DNA of 52,766 nt from Verrucomicrobiia bacterium (GTDB lineage Bacteria > Patescibacteriota > Saccharimonadia > Saccharimonadales > JAGQNK01). The translations under genes were made by a program, and so were the position numbers. Below the pieces are notes generated by a model that saw only the letters and a program-made list of their open reading frames with translations, was not told where the DNA came from and did not search any database. Each line of letters begins with the position of its first letter. Position 1 is the first letter of the stretch. Where the stretch lies: the NCBI GenBank assembly GCA_035489575.1, contig DATHJY010000006.1, positions 1 through 52,766 on the forward strand, in the 5' to 3' direction. This document shows, one piece after another, positions 464 through 51,776 of the stretch.

Positions 464-531
464 ACACTTTTCGTCCTTTTGGACTCGTCAGTTCTGCTTT
501 TGCCACTAGTGTGGCACATCAGAAGAAGTGT
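464..531 (-). ncRNA. Type III hammerhead ribozyme (HHR-1)
   Basis: The minus strand reads ACACTT C TTCTG [23-nt loop with GCCAC/GTGGC hairpin] CAGAA CTGACGA GTCC-AAAA-GGAC GAA AAGTGT. The parts are stem III 5' strand, C17 cleavage site, closed stem I, CUGANGA core, closed stem II, GAA core and stem III 3' strand. The core is identical to the copy at 48103-48156, and stem III differs by a compensatory change. Confidence 0.8.
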
Positions 532-659
532 GCGCGTTCGTGAAGTGGGAGTTGGTTGTCGGGGGTTGGAAGATCCAACTGCGACCACTTCACGGCCTGA
601 CTGTATGCGCGGGGGGGGTAGTCAGGTCTTGACCAGAGTCGATGTCTGCGGGGTGCAGA

Positions 660-1154
660 CTAGGCGGGGATGTCCGGGGTGGTGGCCATGGTGGCGGTCT
701 GGCTGCGGGCCTCGGCGTTGGCCTGCTGTACGGTGGGGGTCCACCCGATGGCCTCGAGGGTCATGCCGATGTAGAAGCCCAGCCACAGCACGCCCATGCG
801 GGTGAGGTCGAGCACGTAGTGCAGGTGACCGTTCTTGTCGATGACGTAGTTGGCGGCCGTGCACTCCATCACGATGGTGATGGCGAGCAGGAGGAGGCCG
901 GCGATGATCGCCGTGAGGAACAGCGTGCCCCAGCCCTTGTACCAGTCGGAGGCACGGTTGAGCTGGATGCCGTCCTTGATGGACAGCTTGGCCGCGACGA
1001 CGCCGCTGAAGGTCGTCACGATGGCGATGCTGGACAGGACGAGGTCGCTGGTGAACTGCGTCGGCAGGAAGACGCCGGCGACGATGGCCGCGACGAGCAG
1101 GACCGCGTGGAGGGGGGTGAAGATGGTGCGAAAGATCTGGAGGAAGTGGGGCAT
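660..1154 (-). CDS. GC-rich hypothetical integral membrane protein, about 4 TM helices; distant paralog of 48282..48845
   Basis: ORF 660..1262 was trimmed to the ATG at 1152-1154 (MPHFLQIF...). It has four hydrophobic segments and GC-rich third codon positions. It shares HYV..D and GFY(I/V)G motifs and the same topology with the 48282..48845 product. Confidence 0.7.
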   Translation of the reverse strand: MPHFLQIFRTIFTPLHAVLLVAAIVAGVFLPTQFTSDLVLSSIAIVTTFSGVVAAKLSIKDGIQLNRASDWYKGWGTLFLTAIIAGLLLLAITIVMECTAANYVIDKNGHLHYVLDLTRMGVLWLGFYIGMTLEAIGWTPTVQQANAEARSQTATMATTPDIPA

Positions 1155-1217
1155 GGATCCGCCTTTGACTCTGATTCCCTTGGAAGGGGCATGCGAGAGG
1201 ATTCTCACAATAAATAC

Positions 1218-1226
1218 ATTATAACA
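1218..1226 (-). promoter_or_regulatory. Extended -10 promoter element TGtTATAAT for the 660..1154 gene
   Basis: The minus strand reads TGTTATAAT in an AT-rich spacer about 60 nt upstream of the ATG. An identical 9-mer sits at the equivalent position upstream of the paralog (48918-48926). Confidence 0.45.
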
Positions 1227-1281
1227 CAAAGACTGATAAAAAGCAATACTTATGACAGTCAAGAAACAGAGGTGGGATGTA

Positions 1282-1310
1282 TTGACTTTCTGGTATTTTT
1301 ATAGTATAAT
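1282..1310 (+). promoter_or_regulatory. Near-consensus sigma70-type promoter (TTGACT, 17-nt spacer, TATAAT)
   Basis: TTGACT lies at 1282-1287 and TATAAT at 1305-1310, separated by a 17-nt spacer. The element is 45 nt upstream of the ATG at 1355, in an AT-rich spacer between two divergent GC-rich genes. Confidence 0.6.
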
Positions 1311-3340: not shown

Positions 3341-3424
3341 AAGGCTTCCTAATCTGTTGTGACAGAGTTCACGCTTATGCTAAAGTAGTGATAAGTATAA
3401 AAAACATCAGCGAAAGGTCAGGCT

Positions 3425-3949
3425 ATGACGGCCAAGGGCACCAAAAAAGTACCTGCAAAGTCATCGAATAAGGGTAAACAAGTGAAGAAGGCAAGCAAGT
3501 TACCGGGGTTTTTCAGTCTAAGTAATAAAAAATTCATACTCTTGACGGTTTTTATCGTTGGCTTTGTGGTTGCGGGGTCGTACTGGCTTTATCAGAGTAG
3601 TTCTGCCAGAGTCGCCAAAGACGACAGTACGGTACAGGGGTGCGAGGCTCTAGGTGTTGTGCTCAAGCAGGGCTCTAAAGGTTCATGCGTGAAAGCTGTA
3701 CAAAAAGTTCTAAATAGTGCTAAAACCAAATATGGCAGTACGGCGCATTGGGGCTATTTAACCGAGGATGGAGTCTATGGCCCTGCTACTGCTTTGACGG
3801 TGGCTGCATACCAGAAGCGTGTCAATAGTTCTCCCTTTTTTCCAGATAGACGGCCCATTGATGTAGATGGGTCGGTGGGACCACAGACATGGTTCTGGTT
3901 CCGGCAGATTACTTGTGTCGATGTCAATACGCCTGCCTGCGGGGATTAA
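3425..3949 (+). CDS. Membrane-anchored peptidoglycan-binding-domain protein
   Basis: It has a basic N-terminus, one TM segment and a PG_binding_1-like repeat (VKAVQKVLN...DGVYGPATALTVAAYQ...VDGSVGPQTW). It is a tandem paralog of 3996..4520. Confidence 0.7.
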   Translation: MTAKGTKKVPAKSSNKGKQVKKASKLPGFFSLSNKKFILLTVFIVGFVVAGSYWLYQSSSARVAKDDSTVQGCEALGVVLKQGSKGSCVKAVQKVLNSAKTKYGSTAHWGYLTEDGVYGPATALTVAAYQKRVNSSPFFPDRRPIDVDGSVGPQTWFWFRQITCVDVNTPACGD

Positions 3950-3995
3950 TGATGTCGCTCGTATAGCAATATGTAAATAACAAAGGGGACAGACA

Positions 3996-4520
3996 ATGGC
4001 AGCCCGTGGTACCAAAACAGCATCCGTAAGATCAACAGCGAAAGGCAAGCAAGTGAAGAAGGCAAGCAAGCTACCGGGTTTTCTCAGTTTGAAAAACCAA
4101 AAATTTGTTATGTTACTGGTTTTTGTGGTTGGCTTTGGAGCGGCTGGATCGTACTGGCTCTTCCAGTCTAGTTCTGCTGCACCCGCCAAGCCTGGCTTTG
4201 ATCTCACTAAAGCCTGGGGGTGTAAGGGTACGGATGCCACACTTCGGGCGGCGCCCGGTGGCAAGGTCGGTTCTGAGGGCTCGTGCGCCAAAGCTGCGCA
4301 GAGTATAGTGAATGGTGCGAATCGTCTGTATCCCAATAGTAACTGGTCTATAATAGGAGAAGACGGTAAGTACGGGGGGCAGACGGCCGCCGCTGTGAGT
4401 GCTTATCAGGGATACATGAGAATTTCGGCAGATGGCGTTGTTGGCCCAGTCACCTGGGAAAAAATGCTCGATACGTGTGAGTATTTGCGTCGGCGGGATA
4501 TAGCTCCTTCCGGATGCTAG
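3996..4520 (+). CDS. Membrane-anchored peptidoglycan-binding-domain protein, tandem paralog
   Basis: It has the same length and architecture as 3425..3949. The N-terminus AKGKQVKKASKLPGF is conserved, and the domain motif is DGKYGGQTAAAVSAYQ...ADGVVGPVTW. Confidence 0.7.
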   Translation: MAARGTKTASVRSTAKGKQVKKASKLPGFLSLKNQKFVMLLVFVVGFGAAGSYWLFQSSSAAPAKPGFDLTKAWGCKGTDATLRAAPGGKVGSEGSCAKAAQSIVNGANRLYPNSNWSIIGEDGKYGGQTAAAVSAYQGYMRISADGVVGPVTWEKMLDTCEYLRRRDIAPSGC

Positions 4521-4577
4521 CGTAGTGCCAGGGTCGCCTGGCGCCCTCCTGGGCTAGAAAGGTTTAAGATAAAATAC

Positions 4578-5501
4578 GTGGATCTAGCGAAAATCAAGCG
4601 TGTGGTGCTGTGGGTGGCCGTCTTGGTCGGGTTTTTGGGGTTTGGCCAAAGCGCCTCTGCTGCAACCGGGACAATATACCTAGCCCCGGCGATCACTAAT
4701 CTGACAAATGGTGCAGAAGTATCAATGGCTCTGCGTATCAATCCGGGTGTGGACGTAAACGGCGTACAGGCCGAGATTACCTATGATGGTTCAAAGCTTC
4801 AGCTGGTCTCTGCCAGCGACGCTGGCAGTGCCTTTCCGGAAATAGCAGAACAGAACGTAGCGGCCAATCCTATATCGCTCACCCGAACTACTTCGGGGAA
4901 TACGGTGAACGTAGACTCACTTATTATCACGCTTCGCTTCAAGGCAGTGGCGGCCAGTGGCAGTACCACGATATCTCTCACGGGCAACGCTGCCCAAGGC
5001 ACGACAGTTACCAGTCCTGGGGTGCAGGGAGCAACCGTTACTTTTAGCTCTTCTAGCTCGCCGGCCCCACCAAGCTCACCCACTCCACCTACACCGTCTG
5101 GCGGTAGTAGCACGAGGCAACAGAACCAAAGTACTCCGCAGCCAGAAGATGTACCAGATGTGCCCGGAGCGGTCAATCAGCTGCCCGGAGTTGACCAGCT
5201 AACAAACGACCCCCAGCCTCTAACAGTACCCGACCCACGGGTATCGCACCGTATCTGGTGGCTCTTTGGCGTACTTGGCGTCATCGTTGTGCTGGGCGGT
5301 GCTTACTGGCTGATTCGTCGCCACCGATCTACACCGGCAGAGCTGGCTGCCGACCATCCCATTGATCGTACCTGGGCTACTCCGCCTGTCCACACGGAAG
5401 AAGACGAAGAAACCGACGAGCTGCTGAGCCATATCCCCGGCACGGCCAAGCCAGACCCTGGCAGTATCATTACGCCCAAGGCACCCCCCGAAAAAAAGTA
5501 A
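4578..5501 (+). CDS. Cohesin-like domain surface protein with Pro/Ser/Thr linker and C-terminal TM anchor
   Basis: The start codon is GTG and a signal peptide is present. The segment GTIYLAPA..GAEVSMALRINPGVDVNGVQAEITYDGSKLQLVS resembles cohesin domains. It is followed by a PS-rich linker and a TM segment (WWLFGVLGVIVVLGGAYWLI). Confidence 0.55.
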   Translation: MDLAKIKRVVLWVAVLVGFLGFGQSASAATGTIYLAPAITNLTNGAEVSMALRINPGVDVNGVQAEITYDGSKLQLVSASDAGSAFPEIAEQNVAANPISLTRTTSGNTVNVDSLIITLRFKAVAASGSTTISLTGNAAQGTTVTSPGVQGATVTFSSSSSPAPPSSPTPPTPSGGSSTRQQNQSTPQPEDVPDVPGAVNQLPGVDQLTNDPQPLTVPDPRVSHRIWWLFGVLGVIVVLGGAYWLIRRHRSTPAELAADHPIDRTWATPPVHTEEDEETDELLSHIPGTAKPDPGSIITPKAPPEKK

Positions 5502-5508
5502 CCTGCTT

Positions 5509-5537
5509 TTGATTAAGATTGCTATTTATGGTATAAA
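5509..5537 (+). promoter_or_regulatory. Sigma70-type promoter (TTGATT, 17-nt spacer, TATAAA)
   Basis: TTGATT lies at 5509-5514 and TATAAA at 5532-5537 with a 17-nt spacer. It is about 100 nt upstream of the GTG at 5638. Confidence 0.5.
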
Positions 5538-5637
5538 TAATTTGTTATCTCTTGAGGTAGCCTGTGTGATTGCGCACAGAAATTGACAACAAGGAAGAAG
5601 CAAGCAACAGGCTAGACACCAAAAAAGGAGGGGTCTA

Positions 5638-5922
5638 GTGGAGCTTACGTGGAAGCAGACTATCGCGCTTGTATCGCTCGCCGGCATTGCCTATTACTGT
5701 CGGAGCCAGATACCGGGCATCGCCGCGTTTTGTTACGACTGGCGATGGGCGTTCGTGTTCGGTTTGGCCGGTTCGGTGATTGCACTGACTCTGGGTTTCA
5801 TTGTGTTGCTCATGGTCATGCCACCGGAAGGAGAACATACCAATACCGGACCTCCGAAAGGGTACGTCTACCGACCCCCGCCTGACGAAGACGAAGGCGA
5901 AGACATCTCCTGGATGCTCTGA
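5638..5922 (+). CDS. Small hypothetical membrane protein (94 aa) with moderately elevated GC
   Basis: The GTG start is preceded by AGGAGG. It has two to three hydrophobic segments and an acidic C-terminus. A structured 3' UTR and a hammerhead ribozyme follow on the same strand. Confidence 0.6.
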   Translation: MELTWKQTIALVSLAGIAYYCRSQIPGIAAFCYDWRWAFVFGLAGSVIALTLGFIVLLMVMPPEGEHTNTGPPKGYVYRPPPDEDEGEDISWML

Positions 5923-5947
5923 CACGAATGCGGGTATCAGAATCTGT

Positions 5948-6087
5948 TCAAGGTCTCTGTTGTTCTAAAATGCTCCTCCGGGTGCCCGTTCGCCCTGATC
6001 CACCAATCGCACCGCAGGTGTGCTTGGCGAACCAGTCCGAATTATCACTTGAAGTGGTACATTTTGCCAACAAAGACGAGACCTTGA
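5948..6087 (+). ncRNA. Stem-closed structured 3' UTR element (S/E motif, copy 1)
   Basis: A closing helix forms between tcaaggtctc (5948-5957) and gagaccttga (6078-6087). The internal 32-mer at 6027-6058 matches 34590-34621 at 25 of 32 positions by hand count. The blocks tccggGtg and cgccctg are shared. A variable hairpin (gcacc/gtgtgc here, cgtaac/gttacg in copy 2) occupies the same position. Confidence 0.5.
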
Positions 6088-6122
6088 GCAGGTTCTCTGC
6101 CCCCTTATTCTTCCTTGTCGTC

Positions 6123-6189
6123 TCTCGATTCCATAACTGATAGTTATGCTGATGAGTCCTCCCTGGTTTGTGCAGGACGAAAATCGAGA
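6123..6189 (+). ncRNA. Type III hammerhead ribozyme (HHR-2)
   Basis: The plus strand reads TCTCGATT(6123-6130) C(6131) CATAACT-GAT-AGTTATG(6132-6148) CTGATGA(6149-6155) GTCCT-[13-nt loop]-AGGAC(6156-6178) GAA(6179-6181) AATCGAGA(6182-6189). All invariant core positions are present. Stems I and II are loop-closed and stem III is open. Confidence 0.85.
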
Positions 6190-6206
6190 AGTGATAGACT
6201 GGTGTA

Positions 6207-7652
6207 ATGAGCTCTTCGACTTTTCTGTTCTATGACTTAGAGACTTCGGGTGTTAGCGCCCGGGATGCGCGCATTATGCAGTTTGCTGGCCAGCGGACAG
6301 ACCTGCAGCTCAATCCCGTGGGTGAGCCGTTTAACTATTTGGTTCGCCTGAGCGACGATGTCCTGCCCGAGCCGGACGCCATTCTGATTACGGGCATCAC
6401 GCCCCAAAAAACCTTGGCCGAGGGAATGCACGAAGCTGAATTCTTAAAGATATTCCATCACGATATTGCCGCTCCAGGCACTATCTTTGTGGGCTTTAAT
6501 ACCGTACGGTTCGACGATGAGTTTATGCGCTACACTATGTATCGCAACTTTTATGACCCTTACGAATGGCAGTGGCAAAATGGCCGGTCACGTTGGGATA
6601 TCTTGGACGTAGTACGCATGACACGTGCCCTGAGGCCGCAGGGAATACAGTGGCCGTTTGACCCCAAGGGCAAGCCAACCAACCGACTAGAGTTGCTGAC
6701 CAAGCTGAATAAGCTGGATCACAGTCATGCTCATGACGCGCTCAATGACGTCCTGGCTACCATTGCGGTTGCTAAGATGATCCGCGACAAACAGCCCAAG
6801 CTATTTGATTTCTTGCTACAGATGCGCGACAAAAAAGAGGTGGCCAAGCTGGTCCAGGGTGGGCAGCCGTTTGTGTACAGCTCTGGCAAATACCCCAGCG
6901 AGTTCGAAAAAACTACTGTGGTTGGCAAGCTGGCTGACCATCCCCAGGCCCAGTCGGCCCTTGTCTTTGACCTGCGACACGATCCAGAGCCTTTCCTAAA
7001 ACTCAATCCCAATGAATTGGCCGAGGCCATGCGCTGGAGTCGCGACGAAAATGCCATCCGACTGCCGGTCAAGACCATCAAATTCAACCGTTGTCCGGCC
7101 ATAGCGCCCCTGGGAGTGCTCGATGCCGATAGCCAACAGCGGCTCAAGTTGGATCCGGCTGTCTATATGGCCAACTTCAAAAAACTGCAGGCTGCCCAGG
7201 AGCGCCTGAGTACCGGCGTATTGCAGGCGTTGGAGTTACTCGACAAGAAGATGCAAGCTCGCTTGCTGCAGGATGAGGCCGACGTAGATACTCGTTTGTA
7301 CGACGGCTTTTTTGACACCCAGGACAAGCTAAAGATGAGCACCGTGCGGGCTGCCACTGCCGAAGAGCTGGGTGGCTTAGACCTGACCTTTAAAGACGAT
7401 CGCCTGGAGGCACTGCTGCCACTGTATAAAGCCCGGAATCACCCCAAGTCACTGACCGCCGAAGAGCGGGCACTATGGGAAACGTTTCGGGAACGCAAGC
7501 TACTGGGCGGTGGCGACCAAAGCCGGGCCGCCAAGTTCTTTAACCGGCTGAGCGAGTTGTCGCAGCGCACCGACCTGACTGGCGAGCAGAAATATCTGCT
7601 GGAAGAGCTGCAATTATACGGCCAAGGTATACTGCCCGTTACTGAGCAATAG
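6207..7652 (+). CDS. sbcB: Exodeoxyribonuclease I
   Basis: There is strong similarity to E. coli ExoI along the full length. Matching segments include FLFYDLETSG, ILITGITPQ, FNTVRFDDEF..YRNFYDPYEWQW..SRWDILDV and HDALNDVLATIAVAK. Confidence 0.9.
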   Translation: MSSSTFLFYDLETSGVSARDARIMQFAGQRTDLQLNPVGEPFNYLVRLSDDVLPEPDAILITGITPQKTLAEGMHEAEFLKIFHHDIAAPGTIFVGFNTVRFDDEFMRYTMYRNFYDPYEWQWQNGRSRWDILDVVRMTRALRPQGIQWPFDPKGKPTNRLELLTKLNKLDHSHAHDALNDVLATIAVAKMIRDKQPKLFDFLLQMRDKKEVAKLVQGGQPFVYSSGKYPSEFEKTTVVGKLADHPQAQSALVFDLRHDPEPFLKLNPNELAEAMRWSRDENAIRLPVKTIKFNRCPAIAPLGVLDADSQQRLKLDPAVYMANFKKLQAAQERLSTGVLQALELLDKKMQARLLQDEADVDTRLYDGFFDTQDKLKMSTVRAATAEELGGLDLTFKDDRLEALLPLYKARNHPKSLTAEERALWETFRERKLLGGGDQSRAAKFFNRLSELSQRTDLTGEQKYLLEELQLYGQGILPVTEQ

Positions 7653-7800: not shown

Positions 7801-8091
7801 AAAGAATACTCCTCGCAACTTACGCACCAGCCAGCCTGCCACCCGGCACAGCCGGCTGCCCCGCTGGCTTCTTGGCCTCCAGCACATTTTTCCCCTGTGG
7901 TACTCCCTCAACGTACTAAAGTACGTCTCGGTCCGTTCCTCGGGAAGAAAATGCACTGGAGGCTCAAGTGCGTAAGCTGTGCCTACGTTAGTTTTTTAAA
8001 AGTGTGCTCTTTCGGTTCCCCTCAAGGTTGCCCACGTATATGGAGAGTATTTTAAATAAAGTTGTATAAAAAGCAAGTATATTTTATAGAG

Positions 8092-8614: not shown

Positions 8615-9066
8615 ATACTTTCTTGTGTTGACAAGAAAGTATCCAAAGAAGCAACCGGCGAACTGGAAACAACAATTGAAAAACTGCGTCGAGCTATCCG
8701 GCTCCTGCGGAACTTGCCCTGCCTTATTATTGTCTTCAATGGAAAGCAGGGCTTCAAACAGTCCTCGGACCGCGGCTTACCTCGACGCAGTTTTTCATCG
8801 GTTTCCACTGAGCCGGCATAGGCCTCCATGGATACAAGCCCTAAAGGGCTTGTTTTTTAATAGCCGAAGGCTGCTGCTTGGAACCAGGCTTTAGCCAAAC
8901 TGATTAGACGGCGGTAACCCGGTTGCTCGCGCTCCGAGGACTAGCCTTTAGGCCGACTAAAAGGAGTCCCGCAGGAGCCGGACAGCCGGGTTACCGGCGG
9001 CTAGTCATGTTTGGGTAACCGCCTGTTGTTTCTTTGGTACCTTTCTTGTCAACACAAGAAAGGTAC
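8615..9066. ncRNA. Large structured RNA candidate, copy R2 (complete); homolog of 1-460
   Basis: It is bounded by two 22-nt segments that are exact reverse complements (ctttcttgtgttgacaagaaag inside 8615-8642 and ctttcttgtcaacacaagaaag inside 9037-9066). A 12-bp long-range helix forms between 8697-8708 and 8971-8982. A second helix forms between 8760-8767 and 8935-8942. The conserved blocks are in the same order as in 1-460. No convincing ORF is present. Confidence 0.55.
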
Positions 9067-17411: not shown

Positions 17412-17455
17412 ATATTTCAGGGTCGAACCCTGTACAGGGTTCGACCCTGAAATAT
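17412..17455. repeat. REP-like perfect palindrome (21-bp arms) upstream of the Y1 transposase
   Basis: The sequence is atatttcagggtcgaaccctg-ta-cagggttcgaccctgaaatat. The core tttcagggttcgaccctgaaa recurs at 18090-18120. Confidence 0.8.
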
Positions 17456-17466
17456 CGGTGTATAAT

Positions 17467-18081
17467 ATGCTTATGCCAAGTAGGAACCGAGTGAAAGTAT
17501 ACGGCCCTCAGCACGTCTATCACGTATATAATAGGGGCAACAACAAAGAACTAGTCTTTCGAGTGTCAGAGGATTACGCGGTTTTCCTTAATATCTTAAA
17601 AAGATATCTCGGAGAAAAGCAAGAGAATGATTCGCTAGGGAGATTGTATAAGAACTTTAGTAGCGAGATTGAGCTAGTGGCCTTTTGCTTGATGCCAAAT
17701 CACTACCATTTACTCCTGTATCAAGAGACCGCAGATGGCATTACAAAACTAATGAAAAGTATTACTGCCTCTTACACGGGCTATTTCAATAAAAAATATG
17801 AACATGTGGGCCATGTTTTTCAGGGGACGTTCAAGGCTTCGCTGATTGATCAAGAGAGCTACTGGCAGCATATTTCACGCTATATTCACTTAAATCCCCG
17901 GCAGTGGCGAAACTGGAGGTGGTCAAGCTTGCCTTATTATCTTGGTGAAAAACAATCTGATTGGGTGAAGCCGGAGCGTTTGTTAGGGGTATTTGAGGGG
18001 CATGATTACTTGAGTTTTGTATCTGACCATGAAGACCACAAGGCTATGCTCGATGAATTAAAGACCATGTTGGCCAACTAG
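17467..18081 (+). CDS. IS200/RAYT-type Y1 (HUH) transposase-like protein
   Basis: The motifs HVYNRGNN, FCLMPNHYHLLL (HUH) and YIHLNP are typical of the Y1_Tnp / REP-associated tyrosine transposase family. Alternative starts lie at 17458 (GTG) and 17473. Confidence 0.75.
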   Translation: MLMPSRNRVKVYGPQHVYHVYNRGNNKELVFRVSEDYAVFLNILKRYLGEKQENDSLGRLYKNFSSEIELVAFCLMPNHYHLLLYQETADGITKLMKSITASYTGYFNKKYEHVGHVFQGTFKASLIDQESYWQHISRYIHLNPRQWRNWRWSSLPYYLGEKQSDWVKPERLLGVFEGHDYLSFVSDHEDHKAMLDELKTMLAN

Positions 18082-18089
18082 AGGTCGTT

Positions 18090-18120
18090 ACCTATTTCAG
18101 GGTTCGACCCTGAAATAGGT
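18090..18120. repeat. REP-like palindrome downstream of the Y1 transposase
   Basis: The sequence acctatttcagggttcgaccctgaaataggt is a perfect palindrome. It shares its core with 17412-17455. Confidence 0.8.
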
Positions 18121-18167
18121 AGGAGTCATGCTAAAATAAGGTAACAAATTACTGACTTGGAGGGACT

Positions 18168-21433: not shown

Positions 21434-23245
21434 CTAGCGGTAGCCTTCGGCTTGTTTACTGAATAGTTCGTGGTACAAGCCTTTCTTTTTCATGAGGGCC
21501 TGGTGTGATCCTTGCTCGACAATCTTGCCGTGGTCTATCACGATGATGCGGTTGGCTCGGCGTACGGTGCTAAACCGGTGGCTGACTATCAGGGCCGTTT
21601 TGTCCTGATAGTGGTCAAAGATGTTGTTGAAGATGTCGTATTCGGCCTTAGCGTCTATGGCGCTGGTTGGCTCGTCTAGAATGATCATGTCGGCATTGCG
21701 GTAAAAGGCTCGGGCCAGGGCGACGCGCTGCCATTGTCCACCGCTGGGCTCGACACCTTTTTTGAAGCTGCTGTCCAGCACCGTGTCCCAGCCGTGGGCG
21801 TAGCCCTTGACCATCTCGTCTACGTTGCCAAAAGCCGCCGCTTGCTCAAGCTGTTTGCGGTTGGCTTTCTGGGTAGAGCGGCCAATCTCGATGTTTTCGG
21901 CAATGCTCAGCGGGTAGTGGTTGAAGTCTTGGAATAATGTGGCCAGCTGGGCGTACCAGGTCTCTATGGCTACCTCTTGCAGGTCCTGTCCGTCCACCAA
22001 AATCTGTCCGCTGGTGGGCTGGTAAAAACGGAGCAGCAGCTTTATGAGCGTGCTCTTGCCGGCACCATTTTCGCCAACCAGGGCAACATGCTCGCCCGAT
22101 TTTATTTCTATATTCAGGTTCTCAAAGATTGGTTCGGTCTGGTCTGGATAAGTAAATGACACGTCTTTGAAAACGATTGAGGGTGTAGCGCCAGCGGGCA
22201 GGGCGATGGCGTTTGGTGGATCGACAATACGAGGCTGAGCATCTACCAGGCTAAAGTAGCTGTCGGCAAACAACAAGCCCTCTTGCATACGGGTGAGGGT
22301 GCCAAAAATGCTGTTCAGGGCGCCACCAATGCGCAGCAGGGCACCAGACAAAAAGAAATAGCGCTCTAAAGAAATAGCGTGACTCAGGAATTGTTTTAGC
22401 AGTATCACGGCACCGGTAGCTGTGCCTCCCGCCTCTAGGACTTTGGTCAGCATGAGGGAACGGCTAGCTTTGCGGTACTTGCCCTCTTGTTCTCTATAAA
22501 ACCCTTGGTTCATGGTATCTATCTTGTTCAGGACAAAACTGGAAGCTTGAGAAGTCCGCAGCTCCATCTGGCCCTTTGCCTGACGAATGATGTATTCCAG
22601 ACCCCAAAAGATATGCCGAAAATCGCCCTTGCTGTCCCAGACAAACCACTGCATCTTGGCCATCCGGCTCTCGCCAATAAGGCTGGGTATCAAGAATAGG
22701 GCAATGAGTGGTACTAGCCACCAGGTGATTTGGGATACCACCGCTGTGATAGCCAGAAAGCGGATGAGGCCATAGATCAGCTCCAGGCAGGCGTCGGACA
22801 GGTTGGGTAGTTGCCAAATGTAGGCGCCGCTAATTTTGTTGAGCTGATTGCGCGTACTGGTTTCGTAAAAGCTGCCCAGATCAAATTTGCTGACAGATTT
22901 CAAAAAACTATTGATAGACCACTGTACCAGCGAGAAATACAGCATGCGCTTGCAGTAGCCCATGATCCAAAACCCAATGCCAATGACCACCACGGCCGTG
23001 ATATCCACCCACAGCCACAGCCAAATATTTTGCGTCTGGCCGGTCGCTACGAACAAGGCCAGCAGCGAGCCGAGCTTGGCGGTGGCGTAGATAGAGGCGA
23101 TGGTGCCACCAACCTCGACCAACGCACCCACGAAGTAGCCTACTATAGACGCACGGCGGATGTTCCAGCAGATTCGCAGCATGCGCAGCCCGATGCTCAA
23201 ACGTCGCTTGAACGTGAGGTCTGTGTCGTCTGTTTTATTCTTCAT
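21434..23245 (-). CDS. ABC exporter, fused permease/ATPase half-transporter (4 of 4)
   Basis: It has a six-TM-type N-domain. The NBD carries Walker A GENGAGKST, signature SGGQWQRVALARA and Walker B IILDEPTSAID. Confidence 0.9.
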   Translation of the reverse strand: MKNKTDDTDLTFKRRLSIGLRMLRICWNIRRASIVGYFVGALVEVGGTIASIYATAKLGSLLALFVATGQTQNIWLWLWVDITAVVVIGIGFWIMGYCKRMLYFSLVQWSINSFLKSVSKFDLGSFYETSTRNQLNKISGAYIWQLPNLSDACLELIYGLIRFLAITAVVSQITWWLVPLIALFLIPSLIGESRMAKMQWFVWDSKGDFRHIFWGLEYIIRQAKGQMELRTSQASSFVLNKIDTMNQGFYREQEGKYRKASRSLMLTKVLEAGGTATGAVILLKQFLSHAISLERYFFLSGALLRIGGALNSIFGTLTRMQEGLLFADSYFSLVDAQPRIVDPPNAIALPAGATPSIVFKDVSFTYPDQTEPIFENLNIEIKSGEHVALVGENGAGKSTLIKLLLRFYQPTSGQILVDGQDLQEVAIETWYAQLATLFQDFNHYPLSIAENIEIGRSTQKANRKQLEQAAAFGNVDEMVKGYAHGWDTVLDSSFKKGVEPSGGQWQRVALARAFYRNADMIILDEPTSAIDAKAEYDIFNNIFDHYQDKTALIVSHRFSTVRRANRIIVIDHGKIVEQGSHQALMKKKGLYHELFSKQAEGYR

Positions 23246-23248
23246 ATA

Positions 23249-25012
23249 TTAATCCTCTAAAAACCCGCCGGACTGGTGAGCCCAAAGTTTGGCATAGGTG
23301 CCTTTCTGTTTTAGTAGTTCTTTATGCGTGCCTTCCTCTATGATAGCCCCCTCTTCCAGGACCACAATGCGGTCCATTCGCTGAATGGTGCTGAGCCGGT
23401 GGGCAATCACGATAGCGGTGCGGCCCTTCATGAGCTCCCAGAGGGCTGCCTGAATAAGCACTTCGCTCTCAGAATCAAGGGCACTGGTGGCTTCGTCCAG
23501 GACCAAGATGGGTGCGTCTTTTAGCATAGCCCGGGCAATAGCTACCCGCTGACGCTGTCCGCCGGATAGCTTTACGCCGCGCTCACCCACCGGCGTATCG
23601 TATTGTTTGGGAAGCTGGGTTATAAACTCGTCTGCATGGGCTAGTTTGGCGGCTTTTTCTATCTGCTTGGTGGTGGCATCGGGTTTGCCGTAGGCGATGT
23701 TTTCACTGAGTGAACGGTGAAACAGGAGGGGTTCTTGGGGTACGTAAGCAATGGCTTGGCGCAAGCTGGTCTGGGTGACATCGGCAATATTCTGGCCATC
23801 GATCACGATCTGGCCATCGTCTATGTCAGAGAATCGCAGCAGCAACTTGGTCAGGGTGGTTTTGCCTCCGCCACTGGCACCAACCAGGCCCACCTTTTGG
23901 CCTGGTTGGATCACTAGGCTCATGTGCTCAAACAGGGCATCTGAATTATCTGCATGGGTAAAAGTTACATCCTCGAAGACGATTTTGCCCCGCTTGGCCG
24001 CCAGCTTCTGGGCATTCTTTTTGTCAGTCACCTCTATAGGCTGGTTCAGTATCTCAGTCATTTCCGAAGCATCTGTCAGGTTTTGTTCGATGTTGCGCGT
24101 CAAACTACTCAGGCCCCACAAGACAGACATGATCTGTGTCATATAGACCTGCACTAGTACCAGGGTGCCTACTGTCACATGGCCATGTTGCACCAGGAAT
24201 AGGGAAAGTACCAGTACGGTAGCTTGGAGTAGTATCATCATGGAGCCAAAGGTGGCATCGTTCTTGACGGCTCGCATCCAATATATATACTTTTTTTGCG
24301 CCCGGTCGACGGCCAGCTCATTAAACATCTTTGACTCTGGCTCTTCTGTGGCAAATGACTTAATAGCACTGGCATTGCCAATACTGTCTGCTAAGTAGCC
24401 GGTCAATTTTGTCTCGGCCTTGGCGACGGCTTTTGAGAATCTGATACGCTTCTTAGTCAGCCAGTAATTAAGCGCCACAAAAGCAGCAGACCAGACTACC
24501 ATAACTGCTGCTAGCGGGAGCGAGTAAAAGGCAATGACCACGGCCGACAGCACGACCAATATAAACATCTGCGACACATTGACAACCAAGGCGTCAGTCA
24601 GCGCCACATAGGCGTTAGCAAATCTGTTGGTCTGCGTAACTAATGATCCACTAAAACTGTTGGCATGGAACCGCTGACTTTGGTAAATCAAGTAATTATA
24701 GGCTCGCCGGTACAGATGTGGCTGCACTTTGGTTTCCATCCGCGATAGCTGAAGCAGACCAAAATCCAGGCATATCTGAGCTGCAACGCCCAGTCCAACA
24801 AATAGGGCAATATCAGTCGCAAAGCTACTCATATCTAACTGTCCTTGCTCGCTCCGGATGATTCTGTCAAAGGCTCGGGCTACAACCAAGGGCATCAGAA
24901 GTTTTTGCATGAACATACCACCAGTCCACAGGCCTACTGTAGAGAAGAGCAGGTTTTTATAGCGCAGGTTTTCGCGCAGGTATAGTTTTAGGGTTTGGGC
25001 TCCAACAGACAT
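23249..25012 (-). CDS. ABC exporter, fused permease/ATPase half-transporter (3 of 4)
   Basis: The NBD carries Walker A GASGGGKTT, signature LSGGQRQRVAIARA and Walker B LVLDEATSALD. The architecture is MsbA/MdlB-like. Confidence 0.9.
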   Translation of the reverse strand: MSVGAQTLKLYLRENLRYKNLLFSTVGLWTGGMFMQKLLMPLVVARAFDRIIRSEQGQLDMSSFATDIALFVGLGVAAQICLDFGLLQLSRMETKVQPHLYRRAYNYLIYQSQRFHANSFSGSLVTQTNRFANAYVALTDALVVNVSQMFILVVLSAVVIAFYSLPLAAVMVVWSAAFVALNYWLTKKRIRFSKAVAKAETKLTGYLADSIGNASAIKSFATEEPESKMFNELAVDRAQKKYIYWMRAVKNDATFGSMMILLQATVLVLSLFLVQHGHVTVGTLVLVQVYMTQIMSVLWGLSSLTRNIEQNLTDASEMTEILNQPIEVTDKKNAQKLAAKRGKIVFEDVTFTHADNSDALFEHMSLVIQPGQKVGLVGASGGGKTTLTKLLLRFSDIDDGQIVIDGQNIADVTQTSLRQAIAYVPQEPLLFHRSLSENIAYGKPDATTKQIEKAAKLAHADEFITQLPKQYDTPVGERGVKLSGGQRQRVAIARAMLKDAPILVLDEATSALDSESEVLIQAALWELMKGRTAIVIAHRLSTIQRMDRIVVLEEGAIIEEGTHKELLKQKGTYAKLWAHQSGGFLED

Positions 25013-25021
25013 GATTTCTCC

Positions 25022-26809
25022 TTATTCCTCTATAAATCCACCGGATTGATGCGCCCACAATGTAGCATAGGTGCCTTTTTTGCGCAGCAGCTGGGTATGG
25101 CTGCCTTCCTCTATGATCCGGCCGTCTTCTAGCACTATAATGCGGTCCATTTTTTGGATAGTGCTCAGGCGGTGGGCGATGACAACGGTGGTCCGGCCCT
25201 TCATGAGCTCGCGCAAGGCGGCTTGGATCAAACGCTCTGACTCACTATCTAGGGCACTGGTGGCTTCGTCAAGCACCAGTATGGGTGCGTCTTTTAAGAT
25301 GGCTCGGGCAATGGCTATACGTTGTCGCTGTCCGCCAGACAGCTTGACGCCACGTTCGCCAACCAATGTTTCGTAACCTTTTGGCAGTTTTTTGATGAAC
25401 TCGTGCGCATGGGCTTTGCGGGCTGCCTCCACTATCTCTTGTTCGGTTGCTTGGGGGTTGCCATAGGCAATGTTTTCACGAATACCGCGGTGGAATAGCA
25501 GTGGTTCTTGCGGTACGTAGGCAATGTGTTTGCGCAGATCTGCCTGGGTAATGTCGGCAATATTCTGGCCATCTAACAATATCTGGCCTTTGTCGATGTC
25601 ATTAAAGCGCAGCAGCAATTTGGTCAGGCTGGTCTTGCCCGAGCCCGAATGTCCAACTAGGCCAATTTTTTCGCGTGATTTGATGGCTAGGTTCAGGTCT
25701 ACGAACAGCGGATCGTCCGTGTTTGAGCCATCGTGAGCAAAGCCCATGTGTTGGAATGTAATCGCACCTTTGCCAATGCGAGCCGGCTGGGACTCAGCGG
25801 AATCTTTGACGCTTGGCTCTGTCTGCAGGACTTCCATCATGGACTGAGCATCACCAAACCCACGGTTATAGTTGCGTAGGGCGGTGTTGCAGAATTCCCA
25901 CAGTCTGTCGCGTAGGGTGCTGCTATAGGCAAATACCAGGAACACGGTTGCTACCGGCGCGTTGTAAACCACGACACTGGCGACGGCAATGGTGATGGCG
26001 GCAGCGTTGAGCAGCGCATTGATAAGCGAGAAGCTTATCTGGGCCCGCATAGATGCGACCATGTATCTTATATGAGTATGCCGCCATTTTTCGGTGCCTT
26101 CCATATAACGCTGACCCTCTGCTTTTTGGGCGGCAAAGCTTTTGATGGCCATGACATTGGTTATGCTGTCGGCCAAGTTGCCCGTCTGGCGATTGCTGGC
26201 ATCGGCTTCTTGCCGGGCGCGTAGCCGTACTGACTTGGTGATATAGATGGCTGCAACCACAAAAAAGACGCTAAAAGCGTTCAGGAAGAATACAAACAGC
26301 CTGGCCTTGTTCCACAGAATGACGCTCATAAATATGACAGACCACAACAGACCACCCGTGTTGTATACGGTGGTGTCAGTGATGCGAGTGTAGGCACTGG
26401 CCAGCTTATTTGCTTGCGAAACTAGCGAGCCGCCAAAAGTGTCGGCATGAAAGGTAGCGCTCAGTTTCATGAGGTGGTCAAAGACCTCTTGGTGGATGTC
26501 TCTGACAACCTTGCCCTCGAGCATCCAGTTGCAATACATGTTAATGCGCCAAATAACCACGCCGCCCAGGGAGGCAACTGCTACTACCGTAAGTATGTCT
26601 GGCCCAAAACTGCCCCATAAGTCGCCCCGCACGAAATTACCACTCGCCAGTCTGTTCAGGATGTTGGCAATCATGAGCGCTGGCAAAAATTCATTGAAAA
26701 GCAACGCCAGTGGCACCGTGAGGTACATGCCCCAAAACAAGAACGGGTAGCGTCGGCCATGACGCCAAAAGTATTTGAGAATTGCAGTGTTGGTGGTCAT
26801 TGGGTTCAT
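25022..26809 (-). CDS. ABC exporter, fused permease/ATPase half-transporter (2 of 4)
   Basis: The NBD carries Walker A GHSGSGKTS, signature LSGGQRQRIAIARA and Walker B LVLDEATSALD. Confidence 0.9.
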   Translation of the reverse strand: MNPMTTNTAILKYFWRHGRRYPFLFWGMYLTVPLALLFNEFLPALMIANILNRLASGNFVRGDLWGSFGPDILTVVAVASLGGVVIWRINMYCNWMLEGKVVRDIHQEVFDHLMKLSATFHADTFGGSLVSQANKLASAYTRITDTTVYNTGGLLWSVIFMSVILWNKARLFVFFLNAFSVFFVVAAIYITKSVRLRARQEADASNRQTGNLADSITNVMAIKSFAAQKAEGQRYMEGTEKWRHTHIRYMVASMRAQISFSLINALLNAAAITIAVASVVVYNAPVATVFLVFAYSSTLRDRLWEFCNTALRNYNRGFGDAQSMMEVLQTEPSVKDSAESQPARIGKGAITFQHMGFAHDGSNTDDPLFVDLNLAIKSREKIGLVGHSGSGKTSLTKLLLRFNDIDKGQILLDGQNIADITQADLRKHIAYVPQEPLLFHRGIRENIAYGNPQATEQEIVEAARKAHAHEFIKKLPKGYETLVGERGVKLSGGQRQRIAIARAILKDAPILVLDEATSALDSESERLIQAALRELMKGRTTVVIAHRLSTIQKMDRIIVLEDGRIIEEGSHTQLLRKKGTYATLWAHQSGGFIEE

Positions 26810-26812
26810 GAT

Positions 26813-34478: not shown

Positions 34479-34501
34479 GGGTGAACCCGTAGGCCCCAGA
34501 A

Positions 34502-34657
34502 CCTATCCAAAATCTCCAGTTCCGTACCAAAACCACCCATTCCGGTGACAATCCGCCCTGGCCCGCCAGCCGTAACTACGGTTACGCCAGACGAACCAGA
34601 ACGAATTCTCCCTCGAAATGGATTGATTTTGGCTACGAAAGCGAGATCTTGGATAGG
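34502..34657 (+). ncRNA. Stem-closed structured 3' UTR element (S/E motif, copy 2)
   Basis: A closing helix forms between cctatccaaaatctc (34502-34516) and gagatcttggatagg (34643-34657) with one mismatch. Its internal blocks are homologous to 5948-6087, including the 32-mer 34590-34621. Confidence 0.5.
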
Positions 34658-34670
34658 CCCTTAACCGATC

Positions 34671-34712
34671 GTGCCTGGCGAAATGTAGCGCATTTCGCCA
34701 GGCACTCTAACT
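34671..34712 (+). terminator. Rho-independent terminator
   Basis: A perfect 15-bp stem forms between gtgcctggcgaaatg (34671-34685) and catttcgccaggcac (34691-34705). It is followed by tctaactttta. Confidence 0.65.
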
Positions 34713-35439: not shown

Positions 35440-35601
35440 ATAGCCAGCCTACTACAAACTTCGCCTCCTACCCAGTGTCTCAGCGGCCAGAAACTCCCAT
35501 ACCTCGCTCAACGTATCAACGGATATGCCTCACTCGGTCTGAAAGCTTCTGACTCACTGAGGCATCTGGCTAAAAGACGAGGTTTGTAGTACGCTGGCTA
35601 T
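35440..35601. ncRNA. Stem-closed intergenic element of about 160 nt, class unknown
   Basis: A 20-bp closing helix forms between atagccagcctactacaaac (35440-35459) and gtttgtagtacgctggctat (35582-35601) with one mismatch. An internal hairpin pairs gcctca with tgaggc. It lies between the GDSL hydrolase gene and pepP. Confidence 0.35.
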
Positions 35602-48102: not shown

Positions 48103-48156
48103 AACGCTTTTCGTCCTTTTGGACTCGTCAGTTCTGACCATATCAGAAGAAGCGTT
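48103..48156 (-). ncRNA. Type III hammerhead ribozyme (HHR-3)
   Basis: The minus strand reads AACGCTT C TTCTGA-TATGG-TCAGAA CTGACGA GTCC-AAAA-GGAC GAA AAGCGTT. The element is a complete 54-nt minimal hammerhead. Confidence 0.85.
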
Positions 48157-48281
48157 TGGCATGAAGTAAGGTATGGTTTGATGATCTAAAAGATCAAAAG
48201 ATCAAAAGATGAGGTCCCTCCTCATCACCCTACTTCATGGCCTAGTCGTGGCTAGGACTTTTCCCAAGGTCTTGTCCCGGA

Positions 48282-48845: not shown

Positions 48846-48917
48846 GTTTAGCGTCCTTTCACGGGACAACTTGGGAACTTCCTGGTTTTTGGTCGAGTGG
48901 GAAGTACACTTACCAAT

Positions 48918-48926
48918 ATTATAACA
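48918..48926 (-). promoter_or_regulatory. Extended -10 promoter element TGtTATAAT for the 48282..48845 gene
   Basis: The 9-mer is the same as at 1218-1226, at a similar distance from the start codon. Confidence 0.45.
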
Positions 48927-49037
48927 TATTTCTTTTATAATACGATATCTGCAACGGATTGCACGCCCTTCATTTATCTGTAGATTGACCAAGCAGTGGA
49001 TAGTTACCTACACTTATACAAAAGATTAAGGGGAATT

Positions 49038-51702: not shown

Positions 51703-51776
51703 AAACCCATCTACTCTTTGTAATTTTTCATATTGCATGGTCACTTCCACAAGATAGCCGCTATGCTCGCCTTATT

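What the first reader, a model, noticed from the sequence alone, without database searches (positions are those of the whole stretch)
6123..6189. Complete type III hammerhead ribozyme 18 nt upstream of the sbcB start codon
All invariant hammerhead core nucleotides are present in the right order. They are CUGAUGA at 6149-6155, GAA at 6179-6181, and the cleavage-site C at 6131 following U.

Three helices support the fold:
- stem I, 7 bp, loop-closed
- stem II, GUCCU/AGGAC, loop-closed
- stem III, 8 bp, open (6123-6130 with 6182-6189)

The ribozyme lies at the 3' end of the 5638..5922 cassette transcript, immediately before sbcB on the same strand. Self-cleavage would separate the cassette mRNA from the core-gene mRNA. 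The sbcB message would then begin at 6132 with a 5'-OH end.
Basis: seen in the sequence. Interest (0 to 1): 0.8.

Follow-up and report, generated by a model that had tools for sequence, protein, structure and literature searches.

The report
Type III hammerhead ribozyme before sbcB
The sequence is a real, complete self-cleaving hammerhead RNA motif, one of three in this Saccharibacteria genome piece. It belongs to a large family in ultrasmall (CPR) bacteria that standard RNA databases miss, and it most likely cuts off the transcript of an inserted orphan gene just before the housekeeping gene sbcB.

Summary
6123-6189 (+) holds a perfect type III hammerhead: CUGAUGA, GAA, an A15.1-U16.1 pair, C17 at 6131, and stems of 7, 5 and 8 Watson-Crick pairs.

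It is not chance. Shuffled windows give about 0.003 hits, against 3 real ones; the other two are 48103-48156(-) and 464-531(-).

Rfam's Hammerhead_3 model scores it at only 19 bits (threshold 48.5). That threshold also misses every hammerhead in 20 related metagenomic loci I checked. A covariance model built from 54 metagenomic relatives, with no window sequence in it, gives 46.6 bits (E about 1e-12).

The window is a Saccharibacteria chromosome. In 80 relatives obg sits next to sbcB and there is no hammerhead. Here a 2.9-kb insertion of accessory genes ends with an orphan gene, a long hairpin and the ribozyme.

The ribozyme abuts a conserved promoter of the leaderless type for sbcB. The main sbcB mRNA therefore probably starts at about 6207, not at 6132.

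Best reading: the ribozyme forms the 3' end of the cassette transcript and insulates sbcB from read-through. Cleavage itself is untested. This is a new member of a known kind.

The parts
6123..6189 (+). HH1, a type III hammerhead. Stem III 6123-6130 with 6182-6189; U16.1 at 6130; C17 at 6131 (cleavage between 6131 and 6132); stem I hairpin 6132-6148; core CUGAUGA 6149-6155; stem II hairpin 6156-6178; GAA 6179-6181.
   Evidence: Custom covariance model R1: 46.6 bits, E about 1e-12. Rfam RF00008: 19 bits, E 0.14 for a 301-base search.
5934..6101 (+). Long imperfect hairpin (about 165 nt) between the ORF94 stop codon and HH1. It is one copy of a dispersed hairpin repeat.
   Evidence: Fold of 5920-6210: z = -6.1. 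Inverted repeat I14. 64% identical to 34497-34662. A partial copy lies in relative L003.
5638..5922 (+). ORF94, a small membrane protein gene with a strong Shine-Dalgarno sequence (AGGAGG). It is an orphan gene and the last gene of the insertion.
   Evidence: no Pfam family; only itself among 5.8 billion proteins; one predicted transmembrane segment.
3341..6189 (+). Insertion of about 2.85 kb between obg and sbcB. It holds two PG_binding proteins, a cohesin-like protein, ORF94, the hairpin and HH1.
   Evidence: In 80 relatives obg lies upstream of sbcB on the same strand. The gap is only tens of nt in the closest relatives, and some relatives carry smaller inserts. Pfam results. A promoter-like site with a TG-extended -10 lies at 3359-3386.
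6192..6200 (+). Extended -10 element TGATAGACT of sbcB, 6 nt before the ATG at 6207 (leaderless-type promoter). It starts 3 nt after the end of HH1.
   Evidence: alignment by eye. TGNTANNNT lies 6-11 nt before the ATG in 47 of 72 relatives, and TANNNT in 56 of 72.
6207..7652 (+). sbcB (exodeoxyribonuclease I), a core gene.
   Evidence: Pfam RNase_T plus Exonuc_X-T_C. 56-75% identical to 80 Saccharibacteria homologues.
48103..48156 (-). HH2, a second type III hammerhead. It lies between an orphan membrane protein gene (48282-48992, minus strand) and the next minus-strand gene (start at about 48071).
   Evidence: Rfam RF00008: 40.2 bits, full length. R1: 60.1 bits. Identical in contigs from three other samples.
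48158..48242 (-). Hairpin immediately upstream of HH2.
   Evidence: z = -3.7 for the whole unit.
464..531 (-). HH3, a third type III hammerhead, with an extra hairpin inserted in loop I. It lies downstream of the membrane protein gene 660-1262 (minus strand).
   Evidence: R1: 44.5 bits. Rfam gives only 18.6 bits, to Hammerhead_1.
539..594 (-). Hairpin upstream of HH3. Its base pairs covary with those of the HH2 hairpin (CGTGAAGTG/CACTTCACG against CATGAAGTA/TACTTCATG).

Best explanation
What it is (shown by sequence and comparison):
- 6123-6189 encodes a canonical type III hammerhead self-cleaving ribozyme on the + strand.
- It is one of three in this 52.8-kb piece of a Saccharibacteria chromosome.
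- It belongs to a large, uniform family of type III hammerheads. The family has a UUC-type cleavage triplet, a stem I hairpin of 17-18 nt with a UG-rich loop, and a GUCC-NNNN-GGAC stem II. It occurs in intergenic regions of Patescibacteria (CPR) genomes.

Where it sits (shown):
- It is the last element of a 2.85-kb insertion of accessory genes between the otherwise adjacent core genes obg and sbcB.
- It follows an orphan membrane protein gene and a long hairpin.
- It lies 3 nt upstream of sbcB's own conserved extended -10 promoter, which is of the leaderless type.

How it most likely works (inferred):
- Transcripts of the cassette that run past the hairpin fold into the hammerhead. They cleave themselves between C6131 and C6132.
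- The upstream product is the cassette mRNA. It ends in a 2',3'-cyclic phosphate just after a protective hairpin.
- The downstream product is a 5'-OH RNA that carries sbcB behind a 75-nt leader with no Shine-Dalgarno sequence. It is probably untranslated and unstable.
- The ribozyme thus does the job of a terminator. It forms the 3' end of the inserted gene's message and insulates the neighbouring core gene from read-through.
- sbcB itself is expressed from its own promoter as a leaderless mRNA that starts at about 6207.
For: Motif and statistics.

Family:
91 of the 127 loci scanned (119 metagenomic plus 8 viral-contig) hold a type III hammerhead of the same build.
- Stems I and III covary widely.
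- Model R1, built without window sequences, scores HH1, HH2 and HH3 at 46.6, 60.1 and 44.5 bits. Background scores are 10 bits or less.
- Where a source names the organism of a neighbouring protein, it is always CPR: Paceibacterota, Saccharibacteria oral taxon 955 and Woesebacteria.

Insertion and junction.

sbcB's own promoter.

Family context:
- The hammerheads are intergenic between genes on the same strand.
- Only about 8 of 77 upstream ORFs have any Pfam hit, and they share no family. Downstream genes include topA, rpsS, a SpoU methylase and VIT1.
- Three further junctions run from an orphan gene to a core gene: dprA-[small ORFs + 2 hammerheads]-topA in L167, [orphan]-hammerhead-rpsS-rplV-rpsC in L168, and [orphan]-hammerhead-SpoU methylase in L153.
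- The 120 nt upstream of the hammerheads are strongly structured: median z = -3.7, with 73% below -2. The values are -1.2 downstream and -0.3 in the control. The 3' flanks of window genes give -0.27.
- An extended -10 element 5-9 nt before the next ATG occurs after 9 of 46 hammerheads, against 0.64% of control ATGs.

Parallel locus: the second copy of the hairpin repeat (34497-34662) is followed by a perfect 15-bp hairpin with a T-rich tail. After that come TGTATAAT and a leaderless-type ATG. A terminator-like hairpin thus sits where HH1 sits.

Precedent: bacterial hammerheads that flank genes cleave polycistronic RNA in vitro (PMC3088659). Prokaryotic hammerheads flank small non-conserved ORFs (PMC6155905).
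Against: - No cleavage or transcript data exist for this sequence. Nothing shows that the cassette is transcribed through the hairpin.
- Loop I of HH1 is 1 nt shorter than the family consensus (UGAUA against UGUGUA). Its loop II is 13 nt instead of 4. The loop-loop contacts needed for fast cleavage at cellular Mg2+ are therefore unverified, although about a quarter of family members also have enlarged stem II hairpins.
- Rfam RF00008 scores it at only 19 bits.
- The hairpin before HH1 is a dispersed repeat that also occurs without a hammerhead. At this locus the hairpin-ribozyme pairing could be coincidental.
- About a fifth of family members are followed by a gene with a Shine-Dalgarno sequence and no obvious promoter. 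The family may therefore also act as a plain cistron separator or a 5' processing element.
- R1's seed sequences were retrieved with a pattern taken from the window's own core and stem II. About 20 of R1's 53 positions are thus not independent of the query.
- The fate proposed for the 5'-OH product rests on general knowledge of RNase J and the glmS ribozyme, recalled from memory. It does not rest on data for this organism.
Confidence: 0.6

Rival explanations
1. 5' processing element for sbcB. sbcB is made mainly by read-through from the cassette. The ribozyme trims the message so that it starts at 6132 with a 5'-OH and a stable 5' hairpin, which sets the message's stability and translation. 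This would resemble the halovirus HHphage or the synthetic RiboJ insulator.
For: - The motif ends only 17 nt before the ATG.
- HHphage lies 13 nt before a helicase start codon, and the mapped 5' end of that transcript lies within 3 nt of its cleavage site (PMC3088659).
- 10 of 46 family members are followed by a gene with a Shine-Dalgarno-like motif.
Against: - sbcB has no Shine-Dalgarno sequence.
- It keeps the TGNTANNNT element 6 nt before the ATG. The same element is conserved in 47 of 72 relatives that have no hammerhead and no cassette.
- A leaderless-type gene embedded behind a 75-nt leader would be poorly translated (general knowledge).
Confidence: 0.2
2. Component of a selfish or mobile cassette. 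The module of orphan gene, hairpin and hammerhead would move as a unit. The hairpin-ribozyme would serve mobility rather than host gene expression, either as a DNA recombination site or through cleaved and ligated (circular) RNA intermediates, as in retrozymes.
For: - The ribozyme is exactly the last element of an insertion.
- Upstream genes are orphans of no common family.
- Some contigs carry 2-3 hammerheads on the same strand, 280-700 nt apart. These could release small RNAs whose ends can be ligated.
- The hairpin before HH1 is a dispersed repeat.
- A Y1 transposase gene lies in the window.
Against: - No integrase or reverse transcriptase was found among the window ORFs scanned, and no phage proteins.
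- The window's three hammerheads are single copies, 5.6 and 42 kb apart, and HH1 lies on the strand opposite to HH2 and HH3. No circle could form from them.
- Other relatives carry inserts at the same obg-sbcB site without any hammerhead.
- The conserved positions are exactly those needed for RNA catalysis, and G-U pairs occur in the stems. This points to selection on the RNA.
- By eye, no attC-like core sites (RYYYAAC/GTTRRRY) lie at the base of the hairpin.
Confidence: 0.12
3. Chance match or decayed, inactive relic with no present function.
For: - Rfam RF00008 is below threshold.
- Loop lengths are atypical for the family (alignment).
- The hammerhead is absent from all 80 relatives at this locus.
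Against: - All 11 core positions plus the A15.1-U16.1 pair and C17 are intact, and there are 20 Watson-Crick pairs with no mismatch.
- Chance expectation is about 0.003 per window even at far looser stem lengths.
- R1 gives E about 1e-12.
- Two further intact copies lie in the same window.
Confidence: 0.05

Closest known systems
Hammerhead ribozyme, type III topology (Rfam RF00008; viroids, plant satellite RNAs, plant retrozymes)
   Same: Identical catalytic core (CUGAUGA ... GAA, A15.1-U16.1, C17). Three-way junction with stems I and II closed by loops and stem III open.
   Different: It is encoded in a bacterial chromosome as a single copy, not in a circular RNA replicon or a tandem repeat. 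It scores below the Rfam gathering threshold (19 bits; HH2 scores 40.2). Loop I and loop II differ from those of the viroid and satellite type.
Bacterial and prophage hammerheads that flank genes (Perreault et al. 2011, PMC3088659; reviewed in PMC6155905)
   Same: Intergenic position between genes on the same strand. Association with small, non-conserved ORFs. Several copies per region. Proposed role in cutting polycistronic RNA into gene-length pieces.
   Different: - The published cases are mostly type II, near integrases or prophages.
- Here the type is III and the host is a Saccharibacteria (CPR) chromosome.
- No phage genes were found. The family consensus gave no match in 50,697 phage records.
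- The published cases were tested for cleavage; this one was not.
HHphage of haloviruses HF1/HF2 (PMC3088659)
   Same: A hammerhead a few nucleotides upstream of a start codon (13 nt there, 17 nt here).
   Different: HHphage has a variant core and sits at the 5' end of a mapped transcript. Here a conserved promoter lies between the ribozyme and the start codon.
Intrinsic (hairpin) transcription terminators and 3' stabilising hairpins
   Same: Same position in the gene map: after a stop codon and before the next promoter. A terminator-like hairpin occupies the equivalent position after the sister hairpin repeat at 34671-34705. Both leave an mRNA that ends in a hairpin.
   Different: The 3' end would be made by RNA self-cleavage, not by release of the polymerase. 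The polymerase would continue into sbcB.
glmS ribozyme and the synthetic RiboJ insulator (both recalled from memory, not checked here)
   Same: Self-cleavage gives a 5'-OH downstream RNA whose fate differs from that of the primary transcript. RiboJ is a type III hammerhead used to insulate a gene from its upstream context.
   Different: glmS needs a metabolite cofactor and controls its own gene. RiboJ is engineered and is placed in a 5' UTR.

Membership tests
Hammerhead ribozyme (class) | Core strand C3-U4-G5-A6-N7-G8-A9 | tested here: met
   CUGAUGA at 6149-6155.
Hammerhead ribozyme (class) | Core strand G12-A13-A14 followed by A15.1 paired to U16.1 | tested here: met
   GAA at 6179-6181. A6182 pairs with U6130.
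Hammerhead ribozyme (class) | Cleavage-site nucleotide 17 is not G (H17) and follows U16.1 | tested here: met
   C6131 follows U6130.
Hammerhead ribozyme (class) | Three helices around the core. For type III, stems I and II are closed by loops and stem III is open. | tested here: met
   7, 5 and 8 Watson-Crick pairs. The minimum-free-energy fold equals the hammerhead fold.
Hammerhead ribozyme (class) | Loop I - loop II tertiary contacts that give fast cleavage at physiological Mg2+ | tested here: inconclusive
   Loop I is UGAUA against the family consensus UGUGUA. Loop II is 13 nt against 4. About a quarter of family members also have large stem II hairpins.
Hammerhead ribozyme (class) | Site-specific self-cleavage that gives 2',3'-cyclic phosphate and 5'-OH ends | not testable with these tools
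   Needs in vitro transcription or RNA end mapping.
Rfam RF00008 Hammerhead_3 (curated model, operational membership) | Bit score at or above the gathering score of 48.5 | tested here: not met
   - HH1 scores 19.0 bits and HH2 scores 40.2 bits. HH3 has no RF00008 hit.
- No Hammerhead family passes the gathering score in 20 loci where my scanner found hammerheads.
- This is a property of that model's seed and threshold. It is not one of the features that define the ribozyme class.
CPR/Patescibacteria type III hammerhead family (defined here; model R1) | Match to a covariance model built from 54 metagenomic members | tested here: met
   46.6 bits, E about 1e-12, full length. The next background hit scores 10 bits. 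Caveat: the seeds were retrieved with a core plus stem II pattern taken from the window.
CPR/Patescibacteria type III hammerhead family (defined here; model R1) | Intergenic position between genes on the same strand, with strong secondary structure immediately upstream | tested here: met
   ORF94 stop codon, then 200 nt including a 165-nt hairpin, then HH1, then 17 nt, then sbcB.
Integron gene cassette / attC site | IntI integrase nearby, and an imperfect hairpin with RYYYAAC/GTTRRRY core sites at its base | tested here: not met
   No integrase or recombinase family among 30 window ORFs scanned. The bases of the hairpin 5939-6096 do not fit the core-site consensus (read by eye).
Prophage-associated hammerhead cluster | Phage genes or an integrase within a few kb | tested here: not met
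   PHROGs gives only matches of the PG-binding domain to endolysins. The neighbours are Obg, SbcB, PheA and UvrA.

The most novel reading that the evidence does not exclude
The module of hairpin plus type III hammerhead may be a ribozyme-based system found across the CPR that forms 3' ends and insulates transcription.
- It would let orphan or accessory genes sit between tightly packed core genes, many of them leaderless, without disturbing them.
- It would act as the functional equivalent of a terminator in these reduced genomes.
- The family is invisible to Rfam's threshold. I found no paper in the searchable library that links hammerheads to Saccharibacteria or Patescibacteria.
Probability: 0.3. 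Interest if true: 0.65.

Novelty: new member of a known kind. Interest (0 to 1): 0.45.

Why it matters
The biological role of bacterial hammerheads has been an open question since 2010-2011 (PMC3088659, PMC6155905).

This locus shows the anatomy unusually cleanly:
- an insertion that can be delimited by comparison with 80 relatives;
- the ribozyme as the last inserted element;
- a conserved leaderless-type promoter of a core gene 3 nt further on.

This makes a specific hypothesis testable: the ribozyme acts as a 3'-end former and read-through insulator for newly acquired genes.

The work also shows that a large family of type III hammerheads in ultrasmall CPR bacteria goes unannotated by Rfam-based pipelines. 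One member lies in a contig whose neighbouring gene is at least 90% identical to a protein of Saccharibacteria oral taxon 955. If strains of that taxon can be co-cultured with their hosts, they may offer an experimental system.

Tried and rejected
- **Rfam at gathering thresholds.** No hit over the whole window. I rejected this as a refutation because the same threshold misses all family members checked.
- **Alternative type I reading at 6142-6237.** My scanner found it with a stem III of only 3 bp and stem I reaching into sbcB. I rejected it as inferior to the 7/5/8 type III fold.
- **Conservation upstream of sbcB.** No hammerhead in 80 relatives. The element is specific to this lineage and tied to the insertion.
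- **A shared protein family for the genes upstream of the three window hammerheads.**
  - There is only a 29-residue local similarity, E 0.003, between the 200-aa and 236-aa proteins.
  - The 77 metagenomic upstream ORFs share no family, and transmembrane proteins are not enriched relative to downstream genes.
- **ORF94 homologues.** None. A look-up of P0001 found no record.
- **Prophage or integron origin.** No support.
- **Homology of the HH2 and HH3 upstream regions.** Only 53% identity outside the ribozyme. No further copies.
- **tblastx of the flanks against the relatives' loci.** Nothing found.
- **Extending the contig.** No extra hammerhead in 9 kb beyond the right end. The left end could not be extended.

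Full report
**Observation**

- Stem III: TCTCGATT (6123-6130) pairs without mismatch with AATCGAGA (6182-6189).
- Cleavage site: U6130 is followed by C6131.
- Stem I: CATAACT/AGTTATG (6132-6148) forms a hairpin.
- Core: CUGAUGA occupies 6149-6155.
- Stem II: GTCCT/AGGAC closes a 13-nt loop (6156-6178).
- GAA is at 6179-6181, and A6182 pairs with U6130.

The minimum-free-energy fold of the 67-mer is the hammerhead fold. It survives when the whole 5920-6210 spacer is folded.

**Chance**

I wrote a descriptor scan for CUGANGA, GAAA, UH and three helices.
- It finds three type III hammerheads in the window: this one (HH1), HH2 at 48103-48156 (-) and HH3 at 464-531 (-).
- 300 dinucleotide-preserving shuffles of the window gave one hit in total, at the loosest stem lengths.
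- 551 kb of related Saccharibacteria DNA gave none of any topology.

**Covariance models**
- Rfam at gathering thresholds reports nothing in the window.
- In sensitive mode, RF00008 Hammerhead_3 gives 19 bits for HH1 (E 0.14 in 301 bases). It gives 40.2 bits, full length, for HH2. HH3 gets only 18.6 bits, from Hammerhead_1. The gathering score is 48.5.
- To see whether that is meaningful, I scanned the public collections with a pattern taken from the core and stem II (CTGAYGAGTCC-N3-25-GGACGAAAA).
  - Viral contigs gave 8 loci.
- 91 of the 127 loci hold a type III hammerhead of strikingly uniform build:
  - a stem I hairpin of 18 nt in 63 of 104 hammerheads;
  - a stem II hairpin of 12 nt in 73 of 104;
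  - C at position 17 in 82 of 104.
- One of them (L153) has the same stem I helix as HH1.
- 54 of these, none from the window, aligned without gaps. Stems I and III show many compensatory changes. The percentage paired in that count is circular, because the set was chosen by a scanner that requires pairing.
- Model R1, built from these 54, scores HH2 at 60.1 bits, HH1 at 46.6 bits (E about 1e-12) and HH3 at 44.5 bits. Nothing else in the window exceeds 10 bits.
- Rfam at gathering threshold reports no hammerhead in 20 of these loci. The Rfam failure is therefore a property of the model, not of the site.
- Caveat: about 20 of R1's 53 positions were fixed by my retrieval pattern.

**Organism and locus**
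- The sbcB product (Pfam RNase_T plus Exonuc_X-T_C) has 80 homologues at 56-75% identity. Nearly all are in Saccharibacteria (Saccharimonadales) genomes assembled from metagenomes.
- The window is ENA contig ERZ27268082 k141_1366039. An identical 12.7-kb contig exists in SRR7026570.
- In the relatives obg lies upstream of sbcB, separated by tens of nucleotides in the closest ones.
- In the window 2.85 kb is inserted (3341-6189). It holds two PG_binding proteins, a cohesin-like protein and ORF94.
  - ORF94 is a small membrane protein gene with a strong Shine-Dalgarno sequence.
  - ORF94 has no homologue among 5.8 billion proteins.
- After ORF94 come a 165-nt imperfect hairpin and HH1.
- Some relatives carry other inserts of 0.4-1.5 kb at the same site, but none has a hammerhead.

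**The sbcB promoter**
- Immediately after HH1 comes AGTGATAGACTGGTGTA-ATG.
- TGNTANNNT lies 6-11 nt before the sbcB ATG in 47 of 72 relatives, and TANNNT in 56 of 72. No Shine-Dalgarno sequence is present.
- This is the signature of an extended -10 promoter that drives a leaderless or nearly leaderless mRNA.
- The same layout recurs before several other core genes of the window.
- So sbcB keeps its own promoter downstream of the ribozyme. The productive sbcB mRNA most likely starts at about 6207.
- The RNA that would start at 6132 is a read-through product with a 75-nt leader and no ribosome-binding site.

**Family context**

Position and neighbouring genes:
- In the metagenomic loci the hammerheads are intergenic. 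A same-strand ORF ends about 50-200 nt upstream, and the next ORF often starts within 100 nt.
- Only about 8 of 77 upstream ORFs hit any Pfam family. They form no common family and are not enriched in membrane proteins.
- Downstream genes include topA, rpsS, a SpoU methylase, VIT1 and MBOAT.
- Three loci repeat the window's layout:
  - dprA-[small ORFs + two hammerheads]-topA in L167;
  - [386-aa orphan]-hammerhead-rpsS-rplV-rpsC in L168;
  - [orphan]-hammerhead-SpoU methylase in L153.

Structure and promoters:
- The 120 nt upstream of the hammerheads are strongly structured, with median z = -3.7. The values are -1.2 downstream, -0.3 in a control and -0.27 for ordinary 3' flanks in the window.
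- An extended -10 element 5-9 nt before the next ATG follows 9 of 46 hammerheads, against 0.64% of control ATGs. 10 of 46 are instead followed by a Shine-Dalgarno-like motif.

Taxonomy and phage link:
- Where sources name the organisms of neighbouring proteins, they are Paceibacterota, Saccharibacteria oral taxon 955 and Woesebacteria, all of them CPR.
- The family consensus has no match in 50,697 phage genomes.
- The viral-contig hits score only 12-25 bits with R1.
- PHROGs finds no phage genes around the window's hammerheads.

**The hairpin**
- The hairpin before HH1 (5934-6101) is 64% identical to a second copy at 34497-34662. A partial copy lies in relative L003. It is a dispersed repeat that also exists without a ribozyme.
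- After the second copy come a perfect 15-bp hairpin with a T-rich tail, then TGTATAAT, then an ATG 7 nt later. A terminator-like hairpin thus occupies the place that HH1 occupies before sbcB.

**Mechanism**
- Shown: a canonical motif, membership of a family, the position at the 3' edge of an insertion, and a conserved promoter downstream.
- Inferred:
  - Cassette transcripts that pass the hairpin cleave after C6131.
  - The cassette mRNA ends in a hairpin-protected 2',3'-cyclic phosphate end.
  - The 5'-OH read-through RNA is non-productive.
  - sbcB is expressed from its own promoter.
- This matches the proposal that bacterial hammerheads cut long transcripts into gene-length units (PMC3088659). 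It also matches the remark that prokaryotic hammerheads flank small non-conserved ORFs and that their role is open (PMC6155905).
- Rivals: 5' processing of sbcB mRNA, a role in cassette mobility, and an inactive relic.

**Novelty**
- Hammerheads in bacterial intergenic regions are known, so this is a new member of a known kind.
- Several points may be new:
  - the family is spread across CPR lineages;
  - the family is invisible to Rfam's threshold;
  - the hammerhead is coupled to an upstream hairpin;
  - it sits between orphan genes and the promoters of core genes.
- I found no paper that links hammerheads with Saccharibacteria or Patescibacteria. The searchable library is incomplete, however.

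Noticed in passing
window 48103-48156 (-) and 464-531 (-): Two further complete type III hammerheads, each behind an orphan multi-pass membrane protein gene and a hairpin.
   Followed up: yes
window 5934-6101 (+) and 34497-34662 (+); L003 7314-7422: A dispersed imperfect hairpin repeat of about 165 nt (64% identity between the two window copies). It is specific to this lineage and has no Rfam match. One copy precedes HH1. The other precedes a terminator-like hairpin.
   Followed up: partly
window 35440-35601, 51764-51929, 60-284, 7875-7963, 8901-9007: Several more long intergenic inverted repeats (arms of 23-36 nt, 31-171 nt apart). They show no clear sequence similarity to each other. Their nature is unknown.
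   Followed up: partly
window 17412-17455, 17458-18081, 18089-18121: A Y1 (IS200-like) transposase gene flanked by two perfect palindromes that share TATTTCAGGGT. This looks like an IS200/IS605-type or REP/RAYT-like unit.
   Followed up: no
window 21434-28594 (-): Four tandem paralogous genes of about 590-600 aa. An ABC_tran domain was found in the one that was scanned.
   Followed up: no
L003, L012, L014, L016, L021-L023 (between obg and sbcB): The obg-sbcB spacer is a recurrent insertion site. Several relatives carry 0.4-1.5 kb of extra DNA there, without a hammerhead.
   Followed up: partly
L153 4392-4468 (-): A RAGATH-10 RNA passes the Rfam gathering score at 42.7 bits. RAGATH motifs were originally found near hammerhead- and twister-associated genes. 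It lies just upstream of the orphan ORF that is followed by a hammerhead, in a contig related to Saccharibacteria oral taxon 955.
   Followed up: no
L143 (7850, 8129, 10236), L131, L163, L123, L167: Contigs with two or three same-strand type III hammerheads 280-700 nt apart around tiny ORFs. Cleavage at both ends would release small RNAs with ends that can be ligated, so circular RNAs are possible.
   Followed up: no
window 642-1304 (+) versus 660-1262 (-): Gene callers disagree here. The ENA record calls the + ORF, and the Logan record calls the - ORF. The - ORF has four predicted transmembrane segments and is followed by HH3 on its own strand, so the + call is probably an antisense artefact.
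   Followed up: partly
window gene starts, e.g. 6207, 8520 (-), 10012 (-), 16246, 34738: Many core genes have TGNTANNNT or TANNNT 5-9 nt before the start codon and no Shine-Dalgarno sequence. Others have clear Shine-Dalgarno sequences. The genome appears to mix leaderless and leadered genes.
   Followed up: partly
L083, L087-L090 (IMG/VR viral contigs): One group of viral contigs carries two divergent hammerhead-like matches about 450 nt apart (R1 scores of 22-24 bits).
   Followed up: no
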